A DNA stretch of 64,000 nt from Candidatus Woesebacteria bacterium (GCA_020060845.1 JAGUZK010000045.1:8685-72684); one strand, 5' to 3'. Counted from the stretch's first letter, positions 10,384-30,774 are shown. The notes: generated from the letters alone by a model not told the origin. Numbers and translations: made by a program.

Positions 10384-11487
10384 TTAACTTCCAATCTTGA
10401 ATTCGACCACATCCCCATCCCTCATAACATAGTCTCGACCTTCGCTTCTTACCATCCCCTTCTCCCTTGCCCTGACCCAACCTTTCGCTTCTACAAACTT
10501 TTCAAAATCGACAACATCAGCCTTTATAAATTTCTTTTCAAAGTCACTATGGATTACTCCCGCTGCCACGCTTGCTTTTGTACCACTCCTGATAGTCCAT
10601 GCCCTTACCTCTTTTTCTCCAGCTGTCAAAAAAGTTATTAGCCCCAACGTCTTGAAAGCCTTTTTGATAAGCCTTTCAAGACCAGATTCTTTAATCCCTA
10701 TATCAGCCAGATAAGCTCTTTGGTCACTCTCAGATAAACTTGCAAGATCAGATTCAATTTTTGCGCATATTGCAACGACTTGAGACAATTCAAGATTAAA
10801 TTTCTTCGAATATTCAAACTCAATCTTGTTTGCATCGCGAAGATTTGACTCATCAACATTTAGGCAAACTATGATAGGTTTAACAGTAATTAGAGAAAGT
10901 AAATTAGCAACTTTGAGCTCCTTGTCCGATAAAACCATATCACGCACCGGCACACCACGAGACAAAGCATCCTTAAGTTTTGTCACTACTTCCCAAAAAG
11001 ACAGCGCTTCCTTATCTTGGGTATTACCAGGCGATTTTTGCTTCTCTAGCGTTTGAAGGTCTGCAAGCTTAAGCTCCGTCTCAACAGCCTCAAAATCTTC
11101 CTCCGGAGACGCTACTCCCTGTTTGACAACATCCGGATCCGAAAACATCCTTACAACATGGCAGATAGCCGAAGTCTCTCTTATATGCGCTAAAAACCTG
11201 TTACCCAGCCCCTCTCCCTTTGAAGCTCCAGCAATAAGACCTGCTATATCCACAAACTCAACAGTCGCGGGGATTTTGGGAGGCAGGTGGTCCATATTCT
11301 CCGAATCTTTTACCACCTCAGAAAGCTTATCCAACCGCCAATCGGGTACATCAACAATACCAACATTCGGTTCAATTGTAGCAAATGGAAAGTTTGCAAC
11401 ATACGCTTGCTGACGCTTCAAAAGCGCATTAAAAAGCGTTGACTTTCCTACATTTGGCAAACCAACAATTCCGACCGATAGGTTCAT
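10384..11487 (-). CDS. ychF: ribosome-binding ATPase YchF (Obg-family GTPase)
   Basis: G1 motif GIVGLPNVGKSTLFNAL, with C-terminal TGS domain. Confidence 0.9.
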   Translation of the reverse strand: MNLSVGIVGLPNVGKSTLFNALLKRQQAYVANFPFATIEPNVGIVDVPDWRLDKLSEVVKDSENMDHLPPKIPATVEFVDIAGLIAGASKGEGLGNRFLAHIRETSAICHVVRMFSDPDVVKQGVASPEEDFEAVETELKLADLQTLEKQKSPGNTQDKEALSFWEVVTKLKDALSRGVPVRDMVLSDKELKVANLLSLITVKPIIVCLNVDESNLRDANKIEFEYSKKFNLELSQVVAICAKIESDLASLSESDQRAYLADIGIKESGLERLIKKAFKTLGLITFLTAGEKEVRAWTIRSGTKASVAAGVIHSDFEKKFIKADVVDFEKFVEAKGWVRAREKGMVRSEGRDYVMRDGDVVEFKIGS

Positions 11488-13120
11488 GTCCCAACTTTTC
11501 GGTGGAAGTCAGAGCCAGTTGTGGTAGTGGTATGTGACATAAGACTTCTACCTCACTCCTTTCTTTTATAATTACTTTCTCTATTATATCTCGAATGAAG
11601 TTCTTTTTGTCATACAACTTAAGGCTTTTGAGAGTCTTTCTTGCTTCAGCACATAATTCATCAGCCTCAATGTTGACTACTTCGGGTGAGACTCTGGCTT
11701 TTAGCTCCTCTAATTGCCTTTGATATCCCTCTTTCTTTCGTCTGGCTGCCCTTACTAACTCCATATACTGGTCAAACTCCATCACACCTGAACCATAGGC
11801 TTTGGCGTAGCGATTGATTTCTTCTGTCAGTTTGTCGATTTGCTCCTGAATCTTTAATCTCTCTTGGGTATCTGCTGATCGGTTTGCCTGTTCTCGAATC
11901 CATTCCTCAGCGTGCTTTTTAAGGAGCTCTGAATTAGTTAAATGGTTTGTCAATTCTTTCCAGACCAATGCGTCTAAAACTCTGGCATTTACCCCTCCAA
12001 TGTGGCAACGGCGTTGTTCTTTGGGAAAATGGTGTAATCTTTCTTCACAGCGGTAGTAGTAGTGTCCGTTTCTGTTACAACCATCTCCTGCCCTACGGTT
12101 ACCACATCCACACCACAATACCTCTGAGAGAAGATAATCAAACTTTCTGTGCTTCTTAGCATATCTTCGGTTGTATTCCATAATCTCTTGGGCTTTATCG
12201 TATAAAAATCTGTCCTCCATAATTATCGGCACCTTGAAGGGATACCACTCCTCTTTGGGTCGAAGGCGACGGCTATTTTTCTTTACTTTACGATATTTAT
12301 CATTTTTAATCCTAGTTTTAGACTCTACAGCCTCATGCTTATTGTAATAAGCGATTCCTGTCCAGTAGGTTTCGCAACGAAGCATTCTTGTTATCGAACC
12401 TTTCGTCCAAAAATCACTTCTTCTTTTCCTAGGCTTAATACCCAAATCGTATAAACGCCTAATAATACCGTTTATGGATACTCTTTCGATCACAAACCAG
12501 TCAAAAACTAATTTTATTGTCCGTATTTCTTCTTCGTTTCTCTCCCAGTGAGCAGGCGTGGTATCGGTTCTCTTAACATAGTTGTAGCCATACAAGGCAC
12601 TCCCGCTTATGACAACGCCGTTTTTAGCTTTGTAGAGTTTACCTCTCCTGAAGCGCTCGGCTATCTTTACCCTCTCATAATCATGGAAACAGCCCAACAC
12701 ATTTCTCATAAGACCTTGTTCTTCATTTATTGGATTAATATCGTGGAGGGAAATAACTTTGATCCCCGCTTCTTCAAATTCTCTAAGGAGAACAAGCTGA
12801 TATGTAAAATCCCTCGATAGACGACCAATATCATAAACATACAGGACTTGAATTTCCTGTCTTTTAATTGAGTCACGAAGTGCGTCTAAACCTGGTCGAG
12901 CCAACATCGTGCCTGTCCAGCCATTATCAAGAAAGATGTGTTTTTGAGAAAGAATGTTGCCATCAGCTTCAATTCTGCATTTCGTCTCATCAATCTGAGA
13001 TTCTATTGTGGCTTCTTGTTCCTGGCGACCTGTTGAAACTCTAGCATACAAACCCGCAATCAACGATTGCTTAACTCCACCGTTACCTGTATGATTTGTG
13101 TTAGGCAGTAAATCTTCCAT
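11429..13120 (-). CDS. large serine recombinase (resolvase-domain integrase)
   Basis: 563 aa. N-terminal resolvase catalytic domain (YARVSTGRQE...YVYDIGRLSRD), a recombinase domain, Cys-rich zinc-ribbon region (CGCG...C..C) and a coiled-coil. Its last ~59 nt overlap ychF. Confidence 0.85.
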   Translation of the reverse strand: MEDLLPNTNHTGNGGVKQSLIAGLYARVSTGRQEQEATIESQIDETKCRIEADGNILSQKHIFLDNGWTGTMLARPGLDALRDSIKRQEIQVLYVYDIGRLSRDFTYQLVLLREFEEAGIKVISLHDINPINEEQGLMRNVLGCFHDYERVKIAERFRRGKLYKAKNGVVISGSALYGYNYVKRTDTTPAHWERNEEEIRTIKLVFDWFVIERVSINGIIRRLYDLGIKPRKRRSDFWTKGSITRMLRCETYWTGIAYYNKHEAVESKTRIKNDKYRKVKKNSRRLRPKEEWYPFKVPIIMEDRFLYDKAQEIMEYNRRYAKKHRKFDYLLSEVLWCGCGNRRAGDGCNRNGHYYYRCEERLHHFPKEQRRCHIGGVNARVLDALVWKELTNHLTNSELLKKHAEEWIREQANRSADTQERLKIQEQIDKLTEEINRYAKAYGSGVMEFDQYMELVRAARRKKEGYQRQLEELKARVSPEVVNIEADELCAEARKTLKSLKLYDKKNFIRDIIEKVIIKERSEVEVLCHIPLPQLALTSTEKLGHEPIGRNCWFAKCRKVNAF

Positions 13121-13142
13121 AGGTTTATTTGCTTATTAGGGG

Positions 13143-13170
13143 TCTGGCTTCGCTAGCGAAAGACCCCTAA
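13143..13170. repeat. compound palindrome: 8-bp inverted repeat (aggggtct/agacccct) enclosing a perfect 12-nt palindrome (ttcgctagcgaa)
   Basis: Read directly from the sequence. Followed on the + strand by aattttttataa; lies between the HTH gene and the recombinase start. Confidence 0.7.
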
Positions 13171-13180
13171 TTTTTTATAA

Positions 13181-13360
13181 TCAAGTTTTCGTCATAGGCT
13201 TCTCAAATAACTCTGCCAGCTTGACATTGCTGATTCTCCAGGCTTTGCCCAACTTAATAGCTGGCAATTGCCCTCGTCTTGCCATCCGATAAATGGTTAT
13301 CTTGGCAAGTTTGAGCTTTTCAGCTGCTTCGTTTATGGTTAGATATTCCTGGTTTTCCAT
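13181..13360 (-). CDS. excisionase-family HTH DNA-binding protein (AlpA/Xis-like, possible RDF)
   Basis: 59-aa ORF, below the ORF-track length cutoff: MENQEYLTINEAAEKLKLAKITIYRMARRGQLPAIKLGKAWRISNVKLAELFEKPMTKT. HTH pattern typical of the excisionase/MerR-like family. Confidence 0.55.
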   Translation of the reverse strand: MENQEYLTINEAAEKLKLAKITIYRMARRGQLPAIKLGKAWRISNVKLAELFEKPMTKT

Positions 13361-13394
13361 AAGGCTAATTGATATTGTTTGATATACTTACACA

Positions 13395-13619
13395 CTACCC
13401 AGAGGTTCTCTGTAAGTCAAGTGTGATCGTTAATGCTCCTTTATCCATCTTTTGTCTTTCTATAATATTCTGTCTTGCCAATGTAAAAAGGCGGTCATAA
13501 ACTAGTTTTAAGCGCTCGGCACTCTCTGGTTTATCCGCATAAATAAAGCTGATGTTAGGTGGCATTATCCTTCTCATGTTCGTATTTGGCATATTTCCCT
13601 GCGCCAATTTTCTTGTCAT
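13395..13619 (-). CDS. hypothetical small protein
   Basis: 74-aa ORF that overlaps the next ORF upstream; may be spurious or use an alternative start. Confidence 0.25.
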   Translation of the reverse strand: MTRKLAQGNMPNTNMRRIMPPNISFIYADKPESAERLKLVYDRLFTLARQNIIERQKMDKGALTITLDLQRTSG

Positions 13620-14169
13620 TCCAGTCCTTTATTACTTCACTGATTCTCTTACCCAATTCTTTTTCTTCTGGAGTCAGAGGTTTTTGCTCTATCTCTTCGA
13701 TGTAGTTCTTTGAAACTTCATATTTCCCAACAGATTCGCCCCACTCGATTCTTGTCATCTCCCAAAGCTGCCGAACTTCCTGGACAGTAGCTGGTTGACC
13801 TGCTTGCATCTGCTTTTTTAAAGCTTGAAGTTTGTTCCAAAACATCTCGGTGATAAGATAGGCTCTCTTTTGCCGAATCTGAGTTGTTTTCTTCTTAAGC
13901 ACCTCCAAATCTTCTGCTAATTTCTTATCTGCCCGCTCAACCCAGTGATATTTGACTGACCAGCGCTCTATTGTCCTTTCCGAGGGTAAATCGCCAAGTC
14001 TAGAGCCAAAAATCACCGACAACTCTCCTGCTGAACTCCGACTTATTTGTTGCCATGCCTGGATTAGTTTTGAGACGCTGCCAACTTCGCAATACAGCAA
14101 GAACGCCGAATATTGTTTCTCTGACTCCCCAGGCATTTTTGATGTTGTAAGTTTCTTTATCTTTTCCAT
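13555..14169 (-). CDS. hypothetical protein (phage-like module)
   Basis: 204 aa, helical and charged; no recognisable domain. Confidence 0.4.
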   Translation of the reverse strand: MEKIKKLTTSKMPGESEKQYSAFLLYCEVGSVSKLIQAWQQISRSSAGELSVIFGSRLGDLPSERTIERWSVKYHWVERADKKLAEDLEVLKKKTTQIRQKRAYLITEMFWNKLQALKKQMQAGQPATVQEVRQLWEMTRIEWGESVGKYEVSKNYIEEIEQKPLTPEEKELGKRISEVIKDWNDKKIGAGKYAKYEHEKDNAT

Positions 14170-14172
14170 AGG

Positions 14173-14541
14173 TTATTTTGCTTTTAGCATCGGCTTGCCA
14201 AGTTTCTTATAGATTCCTTCTCTAATTTTCTGCATTTGCTCTGGTGATAGCGGAATATAAGGTGCTTCAGTTGCTCGTTCTGGCAATTGCTTGGTATTTT
14301 TCAAAAATCTGCTTTTTCTATAAAACTCGGCGATATAAGGAATTGGTATTGCAAAGGAGTTAAAAACAATCGCTCCTCGCTCTCCTCTAGCTAGTGCTTC
14401 TTGAACAATTCGAGCCTGATTCTTACTTAGTTCGTATTCTCCCTTTGTGCTCATAATGACAACCCAAATCTCCTCATAATCTTCCTCATTAAATGCCAAG
14501 TTATTTGATATTTCTGGCATCGATGCCTCGTTTGCTGACAT
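14173..14541 (-). CDS. hypothetical protein
   Basis: 122-aa ORF tightly packed with its neighbours. Confidence 0.4.
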   Translation of the reverse strand: MSANEASMPEISNNLAFNEEDYEEIWVVIMSTKGEYELSKNQARIVQEALARGERGAIVFNSFAIPIPYIAEFYRKSRFLKNTKQLPERATEAPYIPLSPEQMQKIREGIYKKLGKPMLKAK

Positions 14542-15229
14542 GTTCGCTCGCCTCCTTTCTAATTTTTAATGCGTCACTTTTGACAAAATTCCTTAAAGCA
14601 GCCAGATAATTTTTATAGCGTTTGCCGTGTGCCTCGCAGTAATTAACCAGGCTGTCATAGCAACTCCTCACAAACGCCAGGGAAACTTGATAATCCTGGG
14701 CTACTTGCTGAAATTCATCTTCACCAAGACTGCTAATATCGGAATACTTTCCTTTAAGGGAGATTAAGTCTTTCTCTTTACTTGTGTTTATTTCTCTTTC
14801 AGTATCTGAAGAAATCTCTGAAGTATTATCTGAATTATATTGCTGATTTTCTGCAAATAGATTTGCTGAATCTCTACAAATTAAATTGCTGATTTTCTGC
14901 AAATTGAGCTTAAAGTGCCTTTTGGGAGGAACTCCTTTGAGTTCGACTTTCATTAAATTCAATCTCTTTATCTTTTTAATCGCACCTTCCTGTTCACTCC
15001 TTGATAGAGCAGTTTCTTCCTTAATTTCGTCAATAGTTTTATAAATTGATTCTGGGTCGTGTCCCTTTCCCCACCAATACAAAAGTTGTGAAAGTAGCAA
15101 CCCAGCCTTAACCGATCCTGTCAGTTTTGCCAATACTGGATTAAACGCTATTGGCTTAACGCTCAAAACTTCAAGAAGTTTCTTGTTGTAATTTATGTTT
15201 CTAGTCCTATTTTTATCCTGCTCTTCCAT
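14501..15229 (-). CDS. putative replication initiation/replisome-organizer protein (DnaD-like N-terminal winged helix)
   Basis: 242 aa. The N-terminal segment LAKLTGSVKAGLLLSQLLYWW...SRSEQEGAIKKIKRLNLM resembles phage replisome-organizer/DnaD N-terminal domains. This is a low-confidence family call. Confidence 0.35.
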   Translation of the reverse strand: MEEQDKNRTRNINYNKKLLEVLSVKPIAFNPVLAKLTGSVKAGLLLSQLLYWWGKGHDPESIYKTIDEIKEETALSRSEQEGAIKKIKRLNLMKVELKGVPPKRHFKLNLQKISNLICRDSANLFAENQQYNSDNTSEISSDTEREINTSKEKDLISLKGKYSDISSLGEDEFQQVAQDYQVSLAFVRSCYDSLVNYCEAHGKRYKNYLAALRNFVKSDALKIRKEASEHVSKRGIDARNIK

Positions 15230-15231
15230 AG

Positions 15232-15522
15232 TTATTTTTCCTGATACAATTTTTGCTTTAAATCTCGAATCACTGTTACCGCTCGTCTGAAATCAACGAG
15301 GCAACTGGGTGAATTTTCTGGCGCAAAATTGAAGGACTGGAGAAGTTCTTTTCGTTCTGGAGAATCTTTTAAGATAAAAACAGACCGCTTGGGATTAGAA
15401 GATGGTTCAACGCCTATAAGGTCAAAGCCTTTGAGGATTAAAAAGGCAACAGTATAGAAGCTGCCACATTTCCATTGTTTATCTTTATTGCGTTTTTCCA
15501 TATTGATTCTCCTTTGAGTCAT
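15232..15522 (-). CDS. hypothetical protein
   Basis: 96-aa ORF, first gene of the minus-strand phage-like block. Confidence 0.4.
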   Translation of the reverse strand: MTQRRINMEKRNKDKQWKCGSFYTVAFLILKGFDLIGVEPSSNPKRSVFILKDSPERKELLQSFNFAPENSPSCLVDFRRAVTVIRDLKQKLYQEK

Positions 15523-15789
15523 AAAAAAAGGGACTCTGTCTTGAGTCCCTATCTTGCTGGGAACACGCCGTAACCGCAGAAGTCGCAGTTACATCATGCT
15601 ATCTTTTCTGGAAAATCAATCAGGGGTGTTGCTTTCGAATAAAGTCGGAGGTGTGGCTGTCGTGCTATCGTTTCAATCCTAAGTCTTTTCAAGACTTTTC
15701 TTATATTATAAGTGTATATAGTCCTGAACCTCTTGTCAAGATTAAAAATGTAGTAAGATTATCTCCAAATTGATACAATATAAGTATAA

Positions 15790-15930
15790 AGCCTAAACCC
15801 GCAAGGGCATGGCTAAGAAAACCCATCACAGGCGGTAAGCTCCTCGTCAGAGCACCTGTGATGGGTCATATCCCGAAAGGGGTATGGGTAGCCGAAAGGC
15901 TATCGCTGGCGGGGAGCTTTTTGTTTGATT
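15790..15930 (+). ncRNA. candidate structured RNA / origin-like element
   Basis: + strand carries three GNRA-capped hairpins: cccGCAAggg (15798-15807), cccGAAAggg (15872-15881) and tagccGAAAggcta (15889-15902). A 12-bp perfect inverted repeat (acccatcacagg at 15821-15832, cctgtgatgggt at 15855-15866) is also present. A possible pseudoknot pairs gctcc (15839-15843) with ggagc (15913-15917), followed by a T-run. Confidence 0.3.
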
Positions 15931-15977
15931 TGACAATCTCCCCCAAGCGAAGTTAACATAGCCAACCATATCAAAAT

Positions 15978-16646
15978 ATGACAATAAAGATGAAAAATAA
16001 GGCTCGTATAGTCGTCCCGATCTTGTTTATTGCCCTTTTACTGCTTGCTGGTAGCTTATTTTGGTATAAGTCGTTTCAGGACAGGTTTGCTCCTCCTCGT
16101 AAAGACGCTCCTATGGTTAAGTTTCGAGTTGACAAACAAAACACTCTCATGGCTGTTACTGGCAATCTTCACTACTACGGTTTTGTCAAAGATGAGGAAG
16201 CACTTAAATATGCGCTTTTACATACCAAAGACAATAAGCTTGGCAAAGAAGGGGCGATCAAAGTTGGTAATAACACCATCGACACTGAGACCGCTTACGA
16301 TATTTCCCAATCGATGAGTGCTTGGGAGATAGCCAGAATTCTTCTCAATGAAGGCACACCAAGTATCAGAGATTGTGATCATGGTTGTGAGGAATATAAC
16401 CCTTTTACGCCAGCCATTTTGCCTGGTGGTGATATTGCTCCCACCTGGAAAGAACAAATGCAGGCAAAGTATAGCTGGGTAAAAAACTTTGATGATTGCC
16501 TTAAAGCCATCGGGCATGATGGCGGTCAAGTTACCAGCGAGGAGGCTTCTAAACGCACTGGTCATCCCAGGGTTTGTAATACCGCCGATGGTCGTTATTT
16601 TATTCAAGGAAAAGAAGGCTGGACTGATTATCCGCCTTATCCCTAA
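15978..16646 (+). CDS. hypothetical secreted/membrane-anchored protein
   Basis: 222 aa with an N-terminal TM/signal sequence (IVVPILFIALLLLAGSLFWY) and Cys-containing C-terminal domain. Confidence 0.5.
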   Translation: MTIKMKNKARIVVPILFIALLLLAGSLFWYKSFQDRFAPPRKDAPMVKFRVDKQNTLMAVTGNLHYYGFVKDEEALKYALLHTKDNKLGKEGAIKVGNNTIDTETAYDISQSMSAWEIARILLNEGTPSIRDCDHGCEEYNPFTPAILPGGDIAPTWKEQMQAKYSWVKNFDDCLKAIGHDGGQVTSEEASKRTGHPRVCNTADGRYFIQGKEGWTDYPPYP

Positions 16647-16655
16647 AGAAAGGAG

Positions 16656-17384
16656 GTGAAAAATATGAAGACTAAAATTATTATCGCTTTGGTTGTTCTT
16701 GTTCTCCTAGGAGCTTTAGTTTGGTGGAAAAAAGGCAGCAACTTACCAATACCTAATGTGACTACTAACAAAGAGACAGACTCTAAGACTGTTGAGATGG
16801 CTGCCATTAGGACATTTATGGCAGATCCTAATTTAGAATTCTCATTTGTTAATACTGACCTACCGATGCCATATTTTAGGGTTGGTAAGATTACTAAAAC
16901 CAAAGATGGAGAAAATATGGAGGCGGTTGAGAGATGGACAAGGAAAGTCAATGTCTATGAGGATACAAAACCATTAAATAATTCATGCGCCGTTTATCAA
17001 TATCATGTCGATCCTAAAAGCCATACCTTAACCCAAGCTGTAATAAGAAGCTTGCATCAAGATGAAATTGAAGCTCTCAAACAAAAAGGTACTCCTTGTG
17101 TATCAGTTGATCCTTTTGAAAACGCACCAGAATTAACTAAAGAAGAAGCTCAAAAGATTGCTTTTGGTTATTTAAGCCATGCCTTACCTAACTTTGAGGA
17201 GATTAAAGACCAATTTGTTTATTCTCAAGATCAAAAAGCTCACACCTGGCTTTGGGAAGATAAAAGTTATCAGTTACCAGAAGGATTAGAAGGAAGACCA
17301 TATTCCTATCCAATTATCCGCCTAACCGTTTATAGTCCTGGGCAGATTTTGTATTGGAACACTGTCCCGTTGTTTGAGAACTAA
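16656..17384 (+). CDS. hypothetical secreted protein
   Basis: 242 aa with an N-terminal signal/TM and a strong SD (aggaggtg) 8 nt upstream; 9-nt gap from previous gene. Confidence 0.5.
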   Translation: MKNMKTKIIIALVVLVLLGALVWWKKGSNLPIPNVTTNKETDSKTVEMAAIRTFMADPNLEFSFVNTDLPMPYFRVGKITKTKDGENMEAVERWTRKVNVYEDTKPLNNSCAVYQYHVDPKSHTLTQAVIRSLHQDEIEALKQKGTPCVSVDPFENAPELTKEEAQKIAFGYLSHALPNFEEIKDQFVYSQDQKAHTWLWEDKSYQLPEGLEGRPYSYPIIRLTVYSPGQILYWNTVPLFEN

Positions 17385-17506
17385 AACCACCACTGCCTAT
17401 TGGTTAAGATGCCCAACGAGGCTTTTGAAGCTAAATTAAGGTAAACTATGCCACTCCAGGCAGGAAAGTTCCATAAAAGTTAACACGGGAGGCTACTTTC
17501 GGTAAC

Positions 17507-20590: not shown

Positions 20591-20597
20591 TTCTCAT

Positions 20598-24580: not shown

Positions 24581-24581
24581 A

Positions 24582-25421
24582 TCAATCTTTTACTAAACTT
24601 AATGTTTTAACAAAATCAATGAATTTATAACCAAACTCTGTAAGGAATTCTACTTTGCTAGCACCTGAACCAATACCACCATCTTTTACTCCTACTCTAA
24701 ATATTCCAAGAGATAGAAGCTCACTTGATATTTCAGCATATTGGTTTTGTTTCTTCCGTTCTTCTTCAAACTGTGCCTTACTTAGGTTCTTGTCTTGGGA
24801 GATATTGGGAATTCTTGATTTAACAATCTCGCTATTAGGATTAAATTCTTCATAAATCCAGTGCATGATAACCTCAGAGTCTGGTTTCTGTCTCATAGTA
24901 AGTTCTTCCCACCACTCAACACTACCTTCATGCTTTCCTTTCATCTTAGCTACTTCTTCCTTTGCCCATTTTTCTTTCCTAGGGATAATAACCTCAGATA
25001 TAAACTTTAAATACTCAAGAGATTCTAATGAAATTTCCTGAGCCACTCGATAAAACCTTTCTAGATTTATTAGATGCCTATCTTCTGCTGAAACATAACC
25101 ATCTAGATAAATTTGCTGTATGAGTTTTCTTTTCTTTATTTCTCTGGTTCTTATTAATGCTTCAAAAGTTATTGCTAATGACTGTTGAAATTCTTGAGAG
25201 CTTAATATTTCTTCCTTAAGTTGGGGAACATGTTTTTTTAATAGATTCCAAAATTCTTTACCTTCATCTGGATATAAGTCAAAAAAAGACCAAACTGCAA
25301 CTTTGCAAAAAAATAAAGATCCTCTCGTGTAAGGATTAGGAGGAAGATTTTTCTCTATTTCATCCATTAAAGCTAAAAAAGTATTTTTTGTCACAGCTTT
25401 CAATGTTTTAGATATTTTCAT
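24582..25421 (-). CDS. hypothetical protein (operon member, unknown function)
   Basis: 279 aa, translationally coupled (1-nt gap to mod, 4-nt overlap with HTH gene). Confidence 0.5.
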   Translation of the reverse strand: MKISKTLKAVTKNTFLALMDEIEKNLPPNPYTRGSLFFCKVAVWSFFDLYPDEGKEFWNLLKKHVPQLKEEILSSQEFQQSLAITFEALIRTREIKKRKLIQQIYLDGYVSAEDRHLINLERFYRVAQEISLESLEYLKFISEVIIPRKEKWAKEEVAKMKGKHEGSVEWWEELTMRQKPDSEVIMHWIYEEFNPNSEIVKSRIPNISQDKNLSKAQFEEERKKQNQYAEISSELLSLGIFRVGVKDGGIGSGASKVEFLTEFGYKFIDFVKTLSLVKD

Positions 25422-25612
25422 TTTTTCTTTTTATTTAAAAAGATTTTTATTTTGTTAGGATCATATCTTCTATCTCCTCGTTTATTAATTCTAACAGCCT
25501 TGAGTTTGCCATCCTTATCCCATCTGCGTAAGGTTTCGGCATGCACATTTAAGATTTCTGCTGCTTGTTTTATGGTTAGGAGTTTTGGTAAATCAAATTT
25601 ATTTTTACTCAT
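25418..25612 (-). CDS. excisionase-family HTH DNA-binding protein
   Basis: 64 aa: LTIKQAAEILNVHAETLRRWDKDGKLKAVRI. Confidence 0.55.
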   Translation of the reverse strand: MSKNKFDLPKLLTIKQAAEILNVHAETLRRWDKDGKLKAVRINKRGDRRYDPNKIKIFLNKKKK

Positions 25613-25614
25613 AT

Positions 25615-27420
25615 TTAATGTTGACTATTTAATTTTGTTGCTATGGCTTCTTGTTCATCGTATAGAGCTTTGTCCTGATCAATCATTTTCTGCTCGGCTG
25701 CTGTTAGCCATTGATTAGACTCCATCCTTGTAACGATTGCCGAAATATTAGCGATTCTTGTCGATATTATCTCATTAATTCTATCAATATCGCTTTTATT
25801 TTTCTCATAAAATTCTTTGTATTCTTTTAACTTTGCCCAACCTGGTTGAATTTCTTTTAATCTTTCAAGTGAAGTTCTCCAACTATCTATTACTTCTTTT
25901 GAATAGTTGGGTGGTACATAACCTGCAAAATGCTGAACGATTACTTGAGTGGGGCAACCATTGATTTCTCCTTCTACCTCAGCGATGCCTACCTCTTGAT
26001 AGGTTTTATCTGTTAAAAATTTTTTGGATTCTGGAAACTGGAATTGGTTGTCAATTAACTCTTCTGCTTCGTAATAACCCTGTGTAGGTGCTTCACCCCA
26101 AACAATATTGGAGTAATTAGTCTCCCTCATAGCCTTTTCCATTGTGTAACCACTTCTTGTTGCCTCAAAGGAGAAATCGTCAAACTTTAAGATTGTCTCG
26201 CCTCTTTTTTGAGCCGACAGTTCAAGTTTTGGTTGGTATTTTAGTTCTCTTGCACCTGCCTCTTTTCGCTTTTCGTTAAGAAGTGTTAAGTATTTTTCTT
26301 TATCAAGTTTTATCTTTGAGGATTCATCAAAATCTCTTGAGGTATCTCGCCAGTATTTAGCAAGATCACCCTTTTGATCTTTAAGGGGCAAGACATGATT
26401 GACAGCGCTAATCTCAACAAACCCAATTTCTCTTGAATCTCCACTTCCTTTGCGATTGTCTCCCATTACAAAAATATGGTTTTCAGGGACAATCACTTTC
26501 TGACATTCCTTTAGAAAAGCCTCTCCAAATGTGGATCGAGGCTTTGCGGTATAAGGTTCTTTTAAGGGCTCGCCGTTAAGGTAAACAATTCCTTCTCGAA
26601 GTTCGATACTGTCGCCTGGCACACCAATTACTCTTTTAACCCACCCTGAAGGTTCACCATACATATTTTTGGTCATCTCCCTAATTTTGTCGTTTTCAAC
26701 AACAACAATGTCCCCCCTACCGATTTCATAATTAAAGTATCTTCTGCCCGCAATTACTAATCCGTTAGGGTAGCGTATCATGCCTGGGTAGCCAACAATT
26801 TGTTTTGCCAATTCTTTGGGGTCTTTTCCTTCGCCTTTGGGAAAGGTTGGAAACATTGACCCTGTCCCAGCTATAGCAATTGCTTCTGGGTCGTAACCTA
26901 AAGCCTCCTTAACCATTACCCCAACTAGTGCGTAACCACCAATCCAAATCGGCAAGATAATTGCACCAACAATTAAAAGTGCGATTATTTTTGTCATGAA
27001 AGGTTTGATACTAAACCCTTTAAGTAGCCCCTTGATGCCTGTATGTTTAAGTTTTTTGATAGCTTCAAGGGGTCTGAGGATATAAACCGCCAAATAAAGG
27101 GGTAAAACAGCAAGAATAAAGAAGAGCTTTATAAGAAAAACAAAGATATTTTGCTTTTTCTGAGACCTCTTAGCTATAAGTTGGGCAGTAAAACTAATAA
27201 TCCCCACTAAGAAAGCCAGACATCCTACTAAAACCAACCCTAAAACTAAGAAGGCATAGATATTGGGAGCTTTATCAAAAAGTTCTCTTCTGATACCTAC
27301 AACATAGCCGATCATTACTAACACACTTATGACGCAGGTTAGCCAAATCACAAATGAGATCTTAATGACTTTATTAAAGGGCGCTTTTTTCTCTTGTAGT
27401 TGTGACAGTTTTTTCGGCAT
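25615..27420 (-). CDS. signal peptidase I (S26)-domain membrane protein with extra ~250-aa C-terminal domain
   Basis: 601 aa. N-terminal multi-TM region, then catalytic motifs GSMFPTF (Ser), VKRVIGVPGD (Lys) and GDNRKGSGDSR, then an unassigned C-terminal domain. First gene of the six-gene operon. Confidence 0.7.
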   Translation of the reverse strand: MPKKLSQLQEKKAPFNKVIKISFVIWLTCVISVLVMIGYVVGIRRELFDKAPNIYAFLVLGLVLVGCLAFLVGIISFTAQLIAKRSQKKQNIFVFLIKLFFILAVLPLYLAVYILRPLEAIKKLKHTGIKGLLKGFSIKPFMTKIIALLIVGAIILPIWIGGYALVGVMVKEALGYDPEAIAIAGTGSMFPTFPKGEGKDPKELAKQIVGYPGMIRYPNGLVIAGRRYFNYEIGRGDIVVVENDKIREMTKNMYGEPSGWVKRVIGVPGDSIELREGIVYLNGEPLKEPYTAKPRSTFGEAFLKECQKVIVPENHIFVMGDNRKGSGDSREIGFVEISAVNHVLPLKDQKGDLAKYWRDTSRDFDESSKIKLDKEKYLTLLNEKRKEAGARELKYQPKLELSAQKRGETILKFDDFSFEATRSGYTMEKAMRETNYSNIVWGEAPTQGYYEAEELIDNQFQFPESKKFLTDKTYQEVGIAEVEGEINGCPTQVIVQHFAGYVPPNYSKEVIDSWRTSLERLKEIQPGWAKLKEYKEFYEKNKSDIDRINEIISTRIANISAIVTRMESNQWLTAAEQKMIDQDKALYDEQEAIATKLNSQH

Positions 27421-27474
27421 AACTCAACAAAATTATACAAAAATTAAAGAGAAATTGGTATACTGTTTGTTGCT

Positions 27475-28311
27475 ATGGCAGATAATTTAGAAGAAAGAAT
27501 TAGTGAACGCCTTAAAAAGCTTCAATCAAGAAAGGGATATTATTATCTCCTTACACATCTTGATTACCCATCAAATCAGAAGCGCCTGGACAAAAACGCT
27601 ATAAACGCTCAAATAAAAGTGATTGAGGACGCACTGCCAGAAATTAAAAAACTGATGAAGCAAATCAAAAGATATGTCCCCCATATTTGGGATCAGACTA
27701 AATATGCAGCAGCCTATCTGCTTCTTGGGAAGGCATTTAGTAATCTTGAAACGATAATTCTTCTTGCCCAGAAAGGACACAATCTTGAGATGGTAGATTT
27801 AGCACGCTCTGGAACGGAATCTATTGATTTAGCATTTCTTTTATCTGAAGATAGCCAAAACCAACAACTTGAAAAGTGGTTTAAGGGGAAAATTATCGAA
27901 AATGAAAAAGCCCGAAAGGCTCTTGATAGAGTAATTAACCAACTAAATCCTGCTTCCGTCAAACTACCCGTAGAGGAAATGAAAAAAGAAGTTTATAAAA
28001 CCTATTCCCTCTACACACATAGCAGTTATGCTGCTCTCCTAGATTCAATCGATGTCTTTCATGAAGATTTTGATTTTGAAAGATATGCAGGATTTCACTT
28101 CGCCAGAAGAAACCTACACGCTGTCCAAGACCTGGCTATCAAAATTCTATTACAGCTGAAAAACATCTATGTGCAATGTAAAAATCAAGATTGTCTAAAT
28201 GAAGTCGACGAATTACTAAAACAAATAGGACATATTGATATGACCCCAGGAGAAATCGCCAAAGTTATAAATGAGCATCTTGGTGATAGGAGTAAAAAAG
28301 ATAAAACATAA
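27475..28311 (+). CDS. hypothetical helical protein
   Basis: 278 aa, divergent from the six-gene operon across a 54-bp intergenic region. Confidence 0.5.
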   Translation: MADNLEERISERLKKLQSRKGYYYLLTHLDYPSNQKRLDKNAINAQIKVIEDALPEIKKLMKQIKRYVPHIWDQTKYAAAYLLLGKAFSNLETIILLAQKGHNLEMVDLARSGTESIDLAFLLSEDSQNQQLEKWFKGKIIENEKARKALDRVINQLNPASVKLPVEEMKKEVYKTYSLYTHSSYAALLDSIDVFHEDFDFERYAGFHFARRNLHAVQDLAIKILLQLKNIYVQCKNQDCLNEVDELLKQIGHIDMTPGEIAKVINEHLGDRSKKDKT

Positions 28312-28326
28312 ATTGTTCTGAATATT

Positions 28327-29421
28327 ATGGCTCATTATCGATATTTGAGGGACGAATCTTACTATAATGACCTTTACGATCTCCACACCATCGAGACCTG
28401 TCTTGATTACTACTGGAGCTTGAAAAGTGGCTTTGAAAAGCATCGGGGTGACAAGAGTTTCAAAAAATACTCCAAGAAAAAGTTCGATACCGAGGTTCAC
28501 AAAGTTGTCAGCTATACCATCAACGCTATTAAAATCGACAGGTTTCGGCATAAAAAGGACACCATCCTAAAGTGGATGGACGATGATCGCCAACGCCAGG
28601 ATCGATTAGACAATGCCGTCGAACCGAAGGATATTCTCTGCCATCAATGCAATAGCCCAATGCTCGCTACCACTAAAGACCTCATAGACCACCTAAATAA
28701 ACCCATGAGAGTTCTTTTCTTCTTTGAATGTCCAAACTGCAAGAAAAGACGAGGTGTTTATGATGATGGCTCAGAGTTTGTTTCAAAACCCCCACTCTGC
28801 CCTAAGTGCAAACACGAAGCCAGGCTAACCTACAAAAGAAAGGGGGAGGTAACAATCTGGACGACTTCCTGTTCTTCTTGTGGCTATAAAGAGGTTGACA
28901 AAGACGATTTTAATAAATGGGAAGTCGATAGAAAGAAAAAAGAAGAGCGAGATCGACTCCTACTTAAGGAATATCGTGCTGAGTTTTGTCTCTCTGATGA
29001 AGATGGTCAGGATTGCCTTTGGAGAATTGACCAGATGAAAAGGCTCGTAGACGAAATGGAAGAGCGGGAAAAACACAAAAAAGAATATGACGCAGTAGCC
29101 AACATTAAAAAACTGACTGTTGTCGAGCTTGAAAAGCTCATTAACGACACCATCAATTCTCAAGGTTATATCCGTCTTGAATTGTCCAAGCCTGAGTTTG
29201 GAAAGCAGCTTATCGTTGGTTTTACTGTCCAAGACAGTAACACCTCCCGCCAAGAGTATGACAGTCGCAATGGCTTCAGAAAGCTCGTTCAGGGGGCTTT
29301 ATCAGGCACAAACTGGCGCTTGATGGTCACCAGCCTTAGTTATCGATTGGGTTATCTTCAGGGTAGCCTCAGAGCCTACGAAACAGAGGAAGACATCCTC
29401 ACCCTTGTAAGGAAGAAGTAA
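28327..29421 (+). CDS. hypothetical protein with two zinc-ribbon-like CxxC pairs
   Basis: 364 aa with CHQC...CPNC and CPKC...CSSC; lies 15 nt after the previous gene. Confidence 0.5.
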   Translation: MAHYRYLRDESYYNDLYDLHTIETCLDYYWSLKSGFEKHRGDKSFKKYSKKKFDTEVHKVVSYTINAIKIDRFRHKKDTILKWMDDDRQRQDRLDNAVEPKDILCHQCNSPMLATTKDLIDHLNKPMRVLFFFECPNCKKRRGVYDDGSEFVSKPPLCPKCKHEARLTYKRKGEVTIWTTSCSSCGYKEVDKDDFNKWEVDRKKKEERDRLLLKEYRAEFCLSDEDGQDCLWRIDQMKRLVDEMEEREKHKKEYDAVANIKKLTVVELEKLINDTINSQGYIRLELSKPEFGKQLIVGFTVQDSNTSRQEYDSRNGFRKLVQGALSGTNWRLMVTSLSYRLGYLQGSLRAYETEEDILTLVRKK

Positions 29422-29974
29422 AAAATCTCATTAGTTTTTCAATCGCTATGTTAATTTCAGAGACAGATTGATCTAGTTCAGAGAGATCAACATCTTTTAT
29501 CGCTTTAGAGAAATTAAATGATCGTTGTGGTTTCAAGACCTTAGGTATGTTAATCTTGTGAGTTGTCGAGGGTATTCCCTCTTTTTCGTTCCCATATTGT
29601 ATAAACCACTGAGAATGGACTATATCATTCCTTGCTTTGCAACACTTCATAAGTAACTCTAGTATTTCCTCAAACTCTCTTGCTCTCTTTTTGCCACATC
29701 TTTCAACAACTAAAGACCTGAGTAGTTGAACCTTCTTCTCAAAACCTAAAGGCGAAGTAATTCTCCTTCCTATTTGTTGCTTTACTCCCGCATTTCCCTC
29801 AGCACCAATAAGTTCCCAAATCCAAAATTCAACCATCGCCTCCAAGTGGTTTAGGAGAACAACTACTTCCCCTATCTTTGCAAGATATTCTTTTGTTTTA
29901 GGGTCTTGATTATCAAGAATTTTCGCTGGCATATCCCAATTATAAGCTATTTGTGGGCATGGCAGGACTTTCAT
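29399..29974 (-). CDS. HEPN-like (Rx4H) protein, possible abortive-infection/RNase component
   Basis: 191 aa, all-helical, with KARNDIVH matching the HEPN Rx4-6H motif. Convergent with the previous gene and overlapping its 3' end. Confidence 0.3.
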   Translation of the reverse strand: MKVLPCPQIAYNWDMPAKILDNQDPKTKEYLAKIGEVVVLLNHLEAMVEFWIWELIGAEGNAGVKQQIGRRITSPLGFEKKVQLLRSLVVERCGKKRAREFEEILELLMKCCKARNDIVHSQWFIQYGNEKEGIPSTTHKINIPKVLKPQRSFNFSKAIKDVDLSELDQSVSEINIAIEKLMRFFTSSLQG

Positions 29975-30025
29975 AGCTGATAGGTGGCGGTGTAGAGCGT
30001 ATTATTCTTCCATAATCGTCTCTCT

Positions 30026-30130
30026 GGGTGATAATTCTGACAGTTCTTTTGTTTGGAAGTAAGAAGTTAAATCTGAAGTCTAAAGTTGTGGAATATCTTA
30101 TTCTATCCCTACAGAAAGATTTGACATCGG
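30026..30130. repeat. copy A of ~100-bp imperfect direct repeat (degenerate copy of the 5' end of the 35788..35991 ORF)
   Basis: Core tgaagtctaaagttgtgg...tcttat...cc..acagaaagatttgacat is about 80% identical to 35931-35988. Confidence 0.7.
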
Positions 30131-30280
30131 TTTAAAAAATCACTTAACAGTTAATTTTAGCAAAAATGAGGTTGTTTTGTTTAGGTTTTAGAAGCTTAAG
30201 TTCTAGTACAAAATCTCAAATACGAAATCCGAAGAGTTTAAAGTTATTCTAGAACTAGAACTATTTTATCATTAAGAAAA

Positions 30281-30724: not shown

Positions 30725-30774
30725 AACTAGCGTAATTCTACATCAAATTATCTTAAAGATCCACAACAAACGAC

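What the first reader, a model, noticed from the sequence alone, without database searches (positions are those of the whole stretch)
11429..30280. ~18.5 kb integrated element inserted next to ychF
The left flank (rpsF-ssb-rpsR-ychF) and the right flank (nucleotide-salvage operon) are housekeeping. The interval between them carries a large serine recombinase, two excisionase-like HTH genes, a DnaD-like replication module, an R-M system and about 12 unknown ORFs, and it is visibly A/T-richer. The right boundary is not defined; serine integrases leave no long direct repeats. The element may also be composite: a recombinase module at 11.4-15.5 kb and a defence module at 17.5-30 kb.
Basis: partly seen in the sequence, partly recalled or inferred. 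Interest (0 to 1): 0.55.

Follow-up and report, generated by a model that had tools for sequence, protein, structure and literature searches.

The report
Serine-integrase island inserted into ychF
An 18.6 kb mobile island carrying anti-phage defence genes sits in the first codons of the GTPase gene ychF of an uncultured Patescibacteria (CPR) bacterium, and its own integrase gene is cut in two by the insertion, which is unusual for this kind of enzyme.

Summary
A large serine recombinase (LSR) element occupies window ~11472-30108 (18.6 kb). attL lies in ychF codons 6-7. attR lies in the 29975-30280 spacer, where the displaced native ychF start (MSNLSVGIE*) survives. The element supplies a replacement ychF start.

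The attachment site lies inside the LSR reading frame. Integration removes the last ~56 codons, which sit 18.6 kb away in frame just past attR. The integrated gene ends instead in 14 codons read from ychF in another frame. Two database homologues and one metagenome contig carry the unsplit gene.

Related LSRs (40-97% identical) abut ychF in four other genome contexts. Nearly all of the 120 best homologues end in the same kind of tail. One 1.4 kb stretch of the LSR is 100% identical to an element in a host whose own genes are only ~65-70% identical.

The core also holds a replication initiator, an excisionase-like HTH protein and a LOOT RNA. The cargo (Type III R-M and others) varies between near-identical strains.

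A second scar at ~35.97 kb brackets the "salvage operon"; its origin is unresolved. No empty site was found in this species. New variant of a known kind.

The parts
10384..11487 (-). ychF, the target gene. Codons 1-5 and part of codon 6 (11472-11487) are supplied by the element; the rest is host DNA.
   Evidence: Pfam MMR_HSR1/YchF-GTPase_C. Identity to L090 drops from 100% to ~75% at 11467.
11445..11500 (-). attL: the element's P' arm with the replacement ychF start ATGAACCTATCGGTCGG, the crossover at about 11471/11472, then the host B' arm.
   Evidence: The attP forms L094/L096 are pseudo-palindromic around GTAG^GG.
11429..13120 (-). Large serine recombinase, integrated (truncated) form, 563 aa. 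The last 14 codons are ychF DNA read in the +2 frame.
   Evidence: Pfam. Homologue tails. dN/dS about 0.04 against L091.
13181..13360 (-). HTH_17 excisionase-like protein, 59 aa; candidate directionality factor.
   Evidence: Pfam 9e-14. PHROG excisionase/RDF families. Conserved next to the LSR in L001, L092, L093, L094 and L095.
13395..13619 (-). Small ORF (65-74 aa) with no family match.
13555..14169 (-). 204-aa protein with a weak match to a small-terminase family.
   Evidence: phrog_6299, 4.3e-14. 82-87% identical in L090 and L091.
14173..14541 (-). 122-aa protein, unknown.
14501..15229 (-). Replication initiator (O-like/DnaD-like), 242 aa.
   Evidence: phrog_9773 3.5e-26 and phrog_6493 8.8e-13. 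The homologue in L091 hits HTH_36.
15232..15522 (-). DUF5659 protein, first gene of the integrase operon.
   Evidence: Pfam 3.6e-08. Also present in L025, L090, L094 and L104.
15790..15904 (+). LOOT RNA (Rfam RF03000), divergent from the integrase operon and 74 nt upstream of the 222-aa gene.
   Evidence: 85.7 bits against a gathering score of 46.4. Same position and orientation in L001, L090, L091 and L025.
15978..17384 (+). Two genes (222 and 242 aa) for proteins with hydrophobic N-termini and no family match.
   Evidence: 89% and 57% identical in L090.
17409..17499 (.). Conserved non-coding block between core and cargo. It is the left breakpoint of the strain-level cargo swap. Function unknown.
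   Evidence: No covariation.
17507..20590 (-). 1027-aa DUF4365 protein (cargo), replaced in strain L001 by NucS_C plus two other genes.
   Evidence: Pfam. PADLOC Aga REase 1.4e-09..
20598..24580 (-). Type III restriction-modification: Res 20598-22916 and Mod 22913-24580. The Mod target-recognition region 23452-24245 is swapped in L003/L004.
24582..27420 (-). 279-aa unknown, 64-aa MerR/HTH_17 protein (PADLOC mad1), and a 601-aa S26 signal peptidase with a long C-terminal extension. In L005 the stretch 24581-28351 (these genes and the 278-aa gene that follows) is replaced by HEPN_AbiU2, an HTH protein and a 208-aa gene.
27475..29974 (.). Three unknown cargo genes: 278 aa (+), 364 aa (+) and 191 aa (-).
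29940..30108 (-). Detached 3' piece of the integrase gene (~55 codons plus stop), which also holds the P arm. It is in frame with the LSR body across the crossover.
   Evidence: reconstructed ORF of 605 aa. Homologous to the C-termini of P0082, P0096 and L102.
30098..30162 (-). attR1 host side: the extended -10-like TGCTAAAAT (30154-30162) and the displaced native ychF start ATGTCAAATCTTTCTGTAGGGATAGAATAA (MSNLSVGIE*). Crossover at about 30108/30109.
   Evidence: Identical in L003-L008.
30109..35966 (-). Block between the two scars: NUDIX, methyltransferase, PfkB, Tmk, GuaA, PRT and a 196-aa gene. Status unresolved: an older LSR-less unit or captured DNA.
35788..36002 (-). Second scar (attR2): TATAAT 35991-35996, a ychF-type start at 35961-35984, and a second copy of the integrase C-terminal piece at 35788-35965.
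   Evidence: The matching uninterrupted junction is seen in L103.

Best explanation
Window ~11472-30108 is an integrative mobile element of a Patescibacteria (Microgenomates-type) bacterium. It inserted into ychF by a large serine recombinase.

Integration (inferred from the junction sequences).
- In the free form, the attachment site attP lies inside the 3' part of the recombinase gene, which then encodes ~605 aa.
- The enzyme recombines attP with attB. attB spans the native ychF start, and the crossover falls at a GG in codons 6-7.

Four consequences of integration.
1. ychF loses its native promoter and first six codons. It continues from a start supplied by the element, so the N-terminus changes from MSNLSVG... 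to MNLSVG... The P-loop stays intact. No -10-like box lies upstream of the new start, so ychF is probably transcribed with the integrase operon (inferred).
2. The recombinase loses its last ~56 residues and ends in 14 residues read from ychF DNA in the +2 frame. All canonical domains are kept.
3. The detached coding piece and the native ychF promoter end up together at the far junction, pointing into the cargo.
4. Excision (attL x attR) would restore both genes. The excising enzyme would be the truncated recombinase, probably helped by the adjacent HTH_17 protein. This step is inferred.

Gene content.
- The core carries DUF5659, a replication initiator, a small-terminase-like protein, HTH_17, the LSR, a LOOT RNA and two exported proteins. 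This suggests a replicating circular intermediate, possibly packaged by a helper phage (speculative).
- The 12.7 kb cargo carries defence genes that homologous recombination reshuffles between strains.
For: Junction mapping.
- Against L090 (CP055308.1), host genes are 46-73% identical in protein and ~64-75% in DNA. The stretch 11468-12899 is 100% identical and 12900-14150 is 80-90% identical. The break falls at ychF codon 7.
- The displaced native start plus an in-frame recombinase C-terminal piece lies at 30127-29940.
- The pattern occurs twice in the window, against 0 expected by chance.

Split gene.
- P0082 and P0096 are unsplit genes ending ...LGYEP.SRD...YLEF.F...RII.QRDE.GRIVHS. This matches the piece encoded beyond attR.
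- The frames agree: the LSR frame is the ychF frame +2 on both sides. The reconstructed ORF is 605 aa and the reconstructed YchF is 369 aa.
- L102 joins an LSR 3' end in frame to such a piece. There follow 3.75 kb and then 8,960 bp that are 100% identical to the integrated L091 element. The contig is 15,619 bp, against a predicted circle of 15,405 bp.

Family behaviour.
- LSRs 97%, 87% and 40% identical abut and overlap ychF in L090, L091-093 and L025.
- L025 has both junctions, with a TGCTATAAT promoter and native start at its attR.
- Of the 120 best homologues, 2 are unsplit, 3 are fragments lacking the C-terminus, and the remaining 115 end in short ychF-frame-type tails.
- Relatives without an LSR have a TATAAT-like box 6-8 nt before the ychF ATG. 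The window's attL does not.

Selection and fold.
- dN/dS is about 0.04 for the LSR body.
- The AF2 model places the last confident strand at residues 514-521. The crossover corresponds to ~residue 535, so the canonical fold is retained.

Not a virus.
- No relative was found in IMG/VR.
- No structural phage proteins were found.
Against: - No empty site and no attP junction of this particular element was found. Every contig carrying the exact ychF, NUDIX or xth protein has the element or breaks at it. A metagenome scan for the reconstructed attB found nothing.
- The activity of the truncated recombinase is not shown, and the directionality factor is not identified.
- L102's LSR end differs from L091's at 5 of 123 nt. 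L102 could therefore be a tandem junction rather than a circle, and its full contig could not be read.
- A second scar at 35.97 kb means the 18.6 kb unit may be only the inner part of a larger or tandem insertion.
- The C-terminal piece is modelled at low confidence (pLDDT 34-67), so its role is unknown.
Confidence: 0.85

Rival explanations
1. The inserted DNA is larger. The unit, or a tandem pair of units, runs from ~11472 to ~35966 (24.5 kb) and includes the 'nucleotide-salvage operon'. The 18.6 kb element is then the younger, inner member.
For: - A second junction scar sits at 35961-35984: a leaderless-type TATAAT, a ychF-type start, then the P arm and C-terminal piece. It is 80% identical to attR1 over 56 nt.
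- L103 shows the matching uninterrupted junction, xth 3' end, promoter, then ATGTCAAATAAACTTTCTGTCGG|TATTGTCGGTTTGCC.
- L005 has a different promoter, B arm and neighbouring gene up to the same crossover, while the block itself is ~99.9% identical.
- The block's G+C is 0.376 against 0.405-0.409 for the flanks.
- In L103 the operon is 75-93% identical but ychF is only 44% identical, so the two have different histories.
- Arrays of such scars occur upstream of ychF in L009 (four) and L023 (two).
Against: - The block has no recombinase.
- Its ychF-proximal end is B-type (a native-looking start), not a P' arm. A simple tandem-integration model therefore does not produce it.
- GuaA homologues grade smoothly from 85% down, like a vertically inherited host gene.
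- The same operon occurs without ychF next to it in L104.
- tmk and guaA are usually core genes (general knowledge).
Confidence: 0.4
2. Only the ~4-6 kb recombinase core is mobile. The defence genes form a host defence island that merely lies next to it.
For: - The core has host-like G+C (0.402) and the cargo is lower (0.367).
- The cargo varies between strains while the core is identical.
- A conserved non-coding block at 17409-17499 separates the two parts.
Against: - No junction scar lies between core and cargo.
- The P arm and the detached integrase piece lie beyond the cargo, at 30.1 kb.
- In the related L091/L102 element, the attP junction joins the integrase directly to the far end of the cargo.
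- In L096 the unsplit LSR gene is followed directly by a SIR2_2 gene.
Confidence: 0.07
3. The element is a fixed, no longer mobile remnant. Integration crippled the recombinase, as with 'suicidal' integrases, and the locus now serves only as a recombination hotspot for defence genes.
For: - The element is present in every sampled strain, and no attB or attP of this element was found.
- The recombinase lacks a conserved C-terminal piece.
- LSR-less scars and deleted LSR remnants are common: L020, L009 and P0241.
Against: - A 1.4 kb segment is 100% identical between two species whose host genes are ~65-70% identical.
- dN/dS is about 0.04.
- The ORFs are intact on both sides of the split.
- attP-form relatives exist.
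Confidence: 0.15
4. It is a prophage, or a phage satellite (PICI-like) that a helper phage packages.
For: - It has an integrase, an excisionase-like HTH protein, a replication initiator and a small-terminase-like protein (phrog_6299, 4.3e-14).
- The size (15-19 kb) and layout resemble satellites.
Against: - No capsid, portal, large terminase, tail or lysis gene was found by Pfam or PHROGs in the ORFs tested.
- The family is absent from IMG/VR.
- The terminase-like match is the only packaging hint.
- A full prophage is effectively excluded. The satellite reading is untested.
Confidence: 0.15

Closest known systems
LSR-driven elements that interrupt and restore protein-coding genes: SPbeta/SprA in spsM, skin/SpoIVCA in sigK, A118 in comK, and the gin element in gerE (PMC5499854, PMC5595907, PMC3556126)
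   Same: A large serine recombinase sits at one end of the element. Insertion is into a coding sequence at a short site without long repeats, and excision is precise and predicted to restore the gene.
   Different: - Here the target gene stays functional, because the element brings a substitute start.
- The attachment site lies inside the recombinase ORF.
- The host is a CPR bacterium.
- The closest annotated relative is only 32.5% identical (Wolbachia phage WO recombinase). None of the listed phage or plasmid matches extends past residue ~500, so none covers the C-terminal piece.
SSV1-type 'suicidal' tyrosine integrases of archaeal viruses and plasmids (review PMC8371274)
   Same: attP lies within the integrase gene, so integration splits the gene and excision rebuilds it. 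The int-att module is compact.
   Different: - Those are tyrosine recombinases, and the review describes them as exclusive to archaea.
- Their split removes essential parts of the enzyme.
- Here the enzyme is a serine recombinase in bacteria, and only a ~56-residue C-terminal extension beyond the canonical fold is detached.
Myxophage Mx8 IntP/IntX and integration-dependent immunity of mycobacteriophages (from my own knowledge, not checked in the library)
   Same: attP lies inside a coding sequence, so the integrated and free forms encode proteins with different C-termini. This acts as a state-dependent switch.
   Different: - Those systems use tyrosine integrases.
- In the mycobacteriophages the split gene is the repressor.
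- No such switch has been shown here.
Defence-carrying integrative islands with a conserved core and a swappable cargo, e.g. pipolins (PMC11551731)
   Same: The layout is bimodular. Defence systems are exchanged by recombination, and the content differs between strains.
   Different: The integrase type, the target and the core genes differ. Here the target is ychF, not a tRNA gene.
LOOT RNA motif, Rfam RF03000
   Same: Full-length match well above the gathering score (85.7 against 46.4 bits).
   Different: In the papers I could read I found no genomic or functional context for the family. Here it is a fixed part of the element core.

Membership tests
Large serine recombinase (serine integrase) | N-terminal resolvase-type catalytic domain with the catalytic serine | tested here: met
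   PF00239, 1.4e-27, residues 24-169. The Y-x-R-V-S-T motif is invariant across 14 homologues.
Large serine recombinase (serine integrase) | Recombinase domain and zinc-ribbon domain following the catalytic domain | tested here: met
   PF07508 1.1e-12 and PF13408 3e-06. Conserved cysteines C327, C329, C348 and C361.
Large serine recombinase (serine integrase) | Long coiled-coil inserted in the zinc-ribbon domain | tested here: met
   The AF2 model of P0082 has helices 368-489 with pLDDT ~80-92. This is a model only.
Large serine recombinase (serine integrase) | Short, imperfectly palindromic attP and attB that recombine at a central dinucleotide without long direct repeats | tested here: met
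   The attP forms L094, L096 and L102 show TTGGGA ... TCCCA symmetry 18-22 nt either side of GTAG^GG. attL and attR share only an imperfect 17-nt ychF-start copy. The exact dinucleotide is not resolved (ambiguity of ~10 nt).
Large serine recombinase (serine integrase) | Catalysis of attP x attB integration, and of excision with a directionality factor | not testable with these tools
   Needs an in vitro or in vivo recombination assay.
Integrative mobile element (genomic island) | Bounded by attL and attR that recombine to give an intact target and an intact attP | tested here: met
   In silico recombination gives a 369-aa YchF and a 605-aa LSR. An uninterrupted attB-type junction is seen in L103.
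Integrative mobile element (genomic island) | Empty-site variant in the same species | tested here: not met
   None was found among the contigs carrying the exact ychF, NUDIX or xth proteins. The scan for the reconstructed attB found nothing.
Integrative mobile element (genomic island) | Evidence of horizontal movement | tested here: met
   1.4 kb is 100% identical to an element in a host with ~65-70% identical flanking DNA. The same LSR family is at ychF in hosts whose YchF proteins are 49-67% identical.
Prophage | Capsid, portal, large terminase, tail and lysis genes | tested here: not met
   No such Pfam or PHROG match in the ORFs tested. The family has no relative in IMG/VR.
Phage satellite (PICI-like) | Integrase, replication initiator and packaging-redirection gene in a ~10-20 kb island; induced and packaged by a helper phage | tested here: inconclusive
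   The integrase, the initiator and a small-terminase-like match are present. Helper dependence cannot be tested.
'Suicidal' (SSV1-type) integrases | attP within the integrase gene, so the gene is split on integration | tested here: met
'Suicidal' (SSV1-type) integrases | Tyrosine recombinase fold and chemistry | tested here: not met
   The enzyme is a serine recombinase. It works like that family in one respect but is not a member.
Type III restriction-modification | Mod methyltransferase plus Res helicase-nuclease in one operon | tested here: met
   PADLOC MTase_III 2.1e-120 and REase_III 5.7e-86. Pfam N6_N4_Mtase, ResIII and RE_endonuc. The two genes overlap by 4 nt.
LOOT RNA (RF03000) | Covariance-model score above the curated gathering score over the full model | tested here: met
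   85.7 bits against 46.4, model positions 1-121. Four further copies in related elements score 64-87 bits.

The most novel reading that the evidence does not exclude
The split of the recombinase gene may be a built-in state switch. The 605-aa enzyme, made only from the free circle, would integrate. The 563-aa enzyme, made only from the integrated copy with its ychF-derived tail, would be the form that excises or stays silent. The ychF 5' end would then act as a cassette-accreting platform. Each arriving unit brings a new ychF start and pushes older, recombinase-less units upstream. That would explain the scar arrays in L009 and the scar-bracketed salvage operon in the window. It would also make CPR hosts depend on the element for transcription of ychF.
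Probability: 0.2. Interest if true: 0.8.

Novelty: new variant of a known kind. Interest (0 to 1): 0.62.

Why it matters
- **Defined elements in CPR bacteria.** Mobile elements of CPR/Patescibacteria are poorly characterised. In six literature searches I found no paper on a serine-integrase element at ychF or in CPR bacteria. This work gives a family of several hundred recombinases with a defined target, mapped attL/attR/attP sequences and a recognisable core. These features can be used to annotate CPR genomes and to delimit their defence islands.
- **An unusual recombinase arrangement.** The attachment site sits inside the recombinase gene. A review describes that arrangement as exclusive to archaeal tyrosine integrases (PMC8371274). 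A serine-recombinase counterpart raises a testable question: does the detached C-terminal extension control directionality?
- **A dependent host gene.** After integration ychF appears to depend on the element for its start codon, and probably for its promoter.
- **Context for an orphan RNA.** The LOOT RNA gains a genomic context for the first time in what I could read.
- **Tool candidates.** Serine integrases with known sites are useful for genome engineering.

Tried and rejected
**Empty site**
- I looked up contigs carrying the exact ychF, NUDIX, xth and LSR proteins. No empty site appeared. L002 simply ends 61 nt upstream of the ychF ATG, inside the LSR 3' end.
- The lookup of the 222-aa protein found nothing on record.
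- A metagenome scan for the reconstructed attB gave 0 hits.

**Searches within the window**
- There are no tRNA genes, so this is not a tRNA-targeting island.
- A DNA-level search for repeats of the junction gave only chance-level short matches. The remnant was found only by reading the spacer and by a protein-motif scan.

**Candidates I rejected**
- I first took the conserved block at 17409-17499 for attR, because of a TGGGAC similarity. I rejected it: it has no ychF remnant, promoter or C-terminal piece. Its RNA folds show no covariation.
- A possible third scar upstream of attR2 (CTGTCCCATATTAG) is just the DHCPILV end of the xth gene.

**External collections**
- The IMG/VR scan found no relatives.
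- The PDB sequence search matched only the catalytic domain of TP901-1 integrase.
- The AF2 model gave no usable confidence for the C-terminal piece.

**Attempt to recover the full L102 contig**
- I searched with its C-terminal peptide, hoping to retrieve the whole contig. Only short fragment ORFs came back.
- The one remnant I looked up, P0241, sits in a decayed locus with no ychF on the contigs read. It was not informative.

**Literature**
- Searches found no description of this family, nor of an LSR with attP inside its own gene.
- The LOOT motif is not discussed in the main text of the paper I checked, and its supplements are not held.

Full report
**What is in the interval**

On the - strand, the order of genes is as follows.

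| Coordinates | Strand | Feature |
|---|---|---|
| 10384-11487 | - | ychF |
| 11429-13120 | - | 563-aa large serine recombinase (LSR): Resolvase, Recombinase and Zn-ribbon domains |
| 13181-13360 | - | HTH_17 excisionase-like protein |
| 13395-13619 | - | small ORF |
| 13555-14169 | - | 204-aa protein with a small-terminase-like match |
| 14173-14541 | - | 122-aa unknown |
| 14501-15229 | - | replication initiator of the O-like/DnaD-like kind |
| 15232-15522 | - | DUF5659 |
| 15978-17384 | + | two genes for proteins with hydrophobic N-termini |
| 17507-20590 | - | 1027-aa DUF4365 protein |
| 20598-24580 | - | Type III Res and Mod |
| 24582-25421 | - | 279-aa unknown |
| 25418-25612 | - | 64-aa MerR/HTH_17 protein (PADLOC mad1) |
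| 25615-27420 | - | 601-aa S26 signal peptidase |
| 27475-29974 | mixed | three unknowns |

Beyond 30280 lie NUDIX, a methyltransferase, PfkB, Tmk, GuaA and a phosphoribosyltransferase. The window has no tRNA genes. G+C is 0.402 in the core, 0.367 in the cargo and 0.405-0.409 in the outer flanks.

**The host**

The best ychF match among species representatives is 67% identical, in a Patescibacteria MAG. Next come Levyibacteria and Gottesmanbacteria. Synteny downstream of ychF (rpsF-ssb-rpsR-ctpB-htrA) is kept in these relatives. Nothing upstream of ychF is shared with them.

**The left junction**

LSR homologues are numerous: 597 proteins with E <= 1e-20, named where named at all as recombinases of Shapirobacteria, Daviesbacteria and Roizmanbacteria.

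Homologues that are 97% (L090, complete genome CP055308.1), 87% (L091-093) and 40% (L025) identical all sit directly upstream of ychF. Each reading frame runs into the gene.

The host genes of L090 are only 46-73% identical in protein and ~64-75% in DNA to those of the window. Even so:
- window 11468-12899 is 100% identical to L090;
- window 12900-14150 is 80-90% identical;
- the first mismatch is in ychF codon 7, at window 11467.

This locates attL and shows recent horizontal exchange of at least part of the element.

**The right junction**

Relatives without an LSR have a TATAAT-like box 6-8 nt before the ychF ATG. This suggests a leaderless transcript. The window's ychF has no such box, so the native promoter should lie at the other end of the insertion.

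It does. The 29975-30280 spacer, read on the - strand, contains TGCTAAAAT and, 26 nt later, ATGTCAAATCTTTCTGTAGGGATAGAATAA. This reads MSNLSVGIE*, a displaced ychF start. The element's own end carries ATGAACCTATCGGTCGG, an imperfect copy that now serves as the ychF start.

The attP-form sequences show symmetry around GTAG^GG. Using that, the crossovers are at about 11471/11472 and 30108/30109, with an ambiguity of ~10 nt. This gives an 18,637-bp element. Joining the halves in silico gives a 369-aa YchF beginning MSNLSVGIVGLPNVGKS.

**The recombinase gene is split**

The DNA just beyond attR encodes RIRYSTTLDFRFNFLLPNKRTVRIITQRDDYGRIIRSTPPP.... It does so in the frame that continues the LSR frame across the crossover.

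The same peptide ends two database homologues:
- P0082, 579 aa, on contigs L094 and L095;
- P0096, 573 aa, on contig L096, where a SIR2_2 gene follows it directly.

The other 118 of the 120 best homologues break down as follows:
- 3 are fragments without a C-terminus;
- the remaining 115 end shortly after the conserved ...LGYEPxxR, in tails rich in C, W and R;
- among the 102 classified by pattern, the tails are 8, 11 or 16 residues long in 98.

That is what the P-loop-coding DNA of ychF yields in the +2 frame. I verified this reading directly for the window, L025, L090 and L091. For the others it is inferred from the similarity of the tails.

So attP lies inside the gene. The free form encodes ~605 aa. 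The integrated form encodes 563 aa, of which the last 14 come from host DNA.

The AF2 model of P0082 (pLDDT 77 overall) has its last confident strand at 514-521. The crossover corresponds to ~residue 535. The detached piece is modelled poorly, at pLDDT 34-67. The integrated enzyme thus keeps the canonical fold and loses a family-specific extension. None of the listed phage or plasmid LSR matches reaches past residue ~500.

The LSR body is under strong purifying selection (dN 0.062, dS 1.69 against L091). The detached piece is under weaker constraint (pN 0.24-0.34, pS 0.64-0.88).

**An attP-form relative that includes its cargo**

A pattern built from the P' and P arms found one metagenome contig, L102. 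On it:
- an LSR 3' end is fused in frame to the C-terminal piece;
- 3.75 kb of genes follow;
- then come 8,960 bp that are 100% identical to the DNA upstream of the integrated L091 element, including its AAA-ATPase/Mrr/DUF4238 cargo and the initiator gene.

From the L091 map a circle would be 15,405 bp. The contig is 15,619 bp, which fits a circle with terminal redundancy.

The LSR end differs from L091 at 5 of 123 nt, and I could not read the last 2.8 kb of the contig. A tandem junction is therefore not excluded. Either way, the cargo lies inside the att-bounded unit. That argues against the 'core only' reading.

**Core and cargo**

- Rfam finds a full-length LOOT RNA (RF03000) at 15790-15904 (+), at 85.7 bits against a gathering score of 46.4.
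- The same RNA sits at the same place and orientation in L001, L090, L091 and L025. It is always divergent from the integrase operon and, in the window, L090 and L091, 70-110 nt upstream of the oppositely oriented gene.
- Consensus promoter-like sites face both ways in this spacer.
- A ~100-nt non-coding block at 17409-17499 is conserved in L001, L090, L091 and L102. It has no covariation and no assigned role.

Between strains that differ at 2 sites in 11 kb of host flank, three cargo segments are replaced:
- 17468-20605: DUF4365 against NucS_C plus two genes;
- 23452-24245: the Mod recognition domain;
- 24581-28351: the 279-aa, HTH, signal-peptidase and 278-aa genes against HEPN_AbiU2, an HTH protein and a 208-aa gene.

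SNP clusters mark the edges of these replacements. This is cassette exchange by homologous recombination.

**A second scar and the 'housekeeping' flank**

The ychF-start pattern and the P arm occur a second time at 35961-35984 and 35931-35948, with 0 matches to the ychF-start pattern expected by chance. This copy directly follows the stop of an exonuclease III-type gene (xth) and a TATAAT box. A second copy of the C-terminal piece follows it. The salvage operon (30109-35966) thus lies between two attR-type scars.

Three further observations bear on this.
- L103 carries the same operon at 75-93% protein identity. It then has an xth 3' fragment, a TGTTAAAAT box and an intact ychF start: ATGTCAAATAAACTTTCTGTCGG|TATTGTCGGTTTGCCAAATGT. 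This uninterrupted site matches B(attR2)+B'(attL). Its YchF, however, is only 44% identical to the window's and is followed by gatCA.
- L005 has a different promoter, ychF-type start and neighbour up to the very crossover of attR2. Beyond that point it is near-identical to the window.
- Scar arrays occur upstream of ychF in L009 (four scars, with single genes between them) and in L023. L020 and P0241 are recombinase remnants.

Repeated insertion and decay at this site is therefore common.

I cannot say how a unit with a P arm on one side and a B-type arm on the other arose. GuaA homologues grade smoothly, like a host gene. I leave the status of this block open, at about 0.4 that it is inserted DNA.

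**Mechanism: shown and inferred**

Shown from sequence:
- the two junctions;
- the frame relations;
- the substitute ychF start;
- the displaced promoter-like box;
- the unsplit and split forms of the gene;
- the family-wide association with ychF;
- the cross-species identity;
- the cargo exchange.

Inferred:
- the long form integrates;
- the truncated form, perhaps with the HTH_17 protein, excises;
- ychF is now transcribed with the integrase operon;
- the initiator maintains a circular intermediate.

Speculative:
- helper-phage packaging, which rests on one small-terminase-like match.

**Comparison with what is known**

This is a serine-integrase element of the kind that interrupts and restores coding genes: SPbeta, skin, A118 and gin (PMC5499854, PMC5595907, PMC3556126). 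It differs from them in keeping the target gene functional.

Carrying attP inside the integrase gene resembles the archaeal 'suicidal' tyrosine integrases, which a review calls exclusive to archaea (PMC8371274). It also resembles Mx8 IntP/IntX, which I cite from my own knowledge. The enzyme here is of the other recombinase class, and only a C-terminal extension is detached. It is not a prophage.

I found no paper describing this family.

**Verdict**

It is a new variant of a known kind, of moderate to high interest. The main open points are proof of activity, the role of the detached C-terminal piece, and the origin of the second scar.

Noticed in passing
window 15790-15904 (+); L090 7532-7648, L091 7476-7587, L001 5584-5698, L025 6780-6911: A LOOT RNA (Rfam RF03000) is a fixed part of the element core. 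It is always divergent from the integrase operon and just upstream of an oppositely oriented gene. I found no description of any genomic context for this motif.
   Followed up: partly
window 35788-36002: A second attR-type scar: a TATAAT box, a ychF-type start (MSSLSVGI...) and a second copy of the integrase C-terminal piece, directly after the stop of an xth-type gene. Together with attR1 it brackets the GuaA/Tmk 'salvage operon'.
   Followed up: partly
window 17409-17499: A ~100-nt non-coding block conserved (~80%) in four related elements, between core and cargo and at the breakpoint of a strain-level swap. No RNA covariation was seen and its function is unknown.
   Followed up: partly
window 17468-20605, 23452-24245 and 24581-28351, against L001, L003/L004 and L005: Three cargo segments are replaced between strains that are otherwise ~99.98% identical. 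One replacement covers only the target-recognition region of the Type III Mod gene.
   Followed up: yes
window 25615-27420: An S26 signal peptidase of 601 aa lies inside the defence cargo. It has several N-terminal hydrophobic segments and a ~260-residue C-terminal extension with a weak CAP-domain match. It is absent from strain L005.
   Followed up: no
L009 1-4700: The closest GTDB relative has no recombinase at ychF. It has four copies of the ~120-nt scar, 1.2-1.4 kb apart, with single genes between them (AAA ATPase, unknown, CorA, HAD). The layout resembles an array of cassettes.
   Followed up: partly
L011, L013, L014, L016, L017, L021 and L023, just upstream of ychF (position 10001): In CPR relatives, ychF has a TATAAT-like box, often preceded by TG, only 6-8 nt before the ATG. 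This suggests a leaderless mRNA.
   Followed up: no
L021 7985-8116: A duplicate of the first 44 codons of ychF (70% identical) lies 1.9 kb upstream of the real gene. Two membrane-protein genes on the opposite strand lie in between, and there is no recombinase.
   Followed up: no
L103 5980-6993: A genome with the same salvage operon at 75-93% identity has a YchF only 44% identical, followed by gatCA instead of rpsF-ssb-rpsR. The operon and ychF therefore have discordant histories.
   Followed up: partly
window 5968-6699 (+); L001 14789-15355: The release-factor gene (PCRF/RF-1 domains) is only 243 aa here and was called as 188 aa on a near-identical contig. This may be a frameshift site or a truncated gene call.
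   Followed up: no
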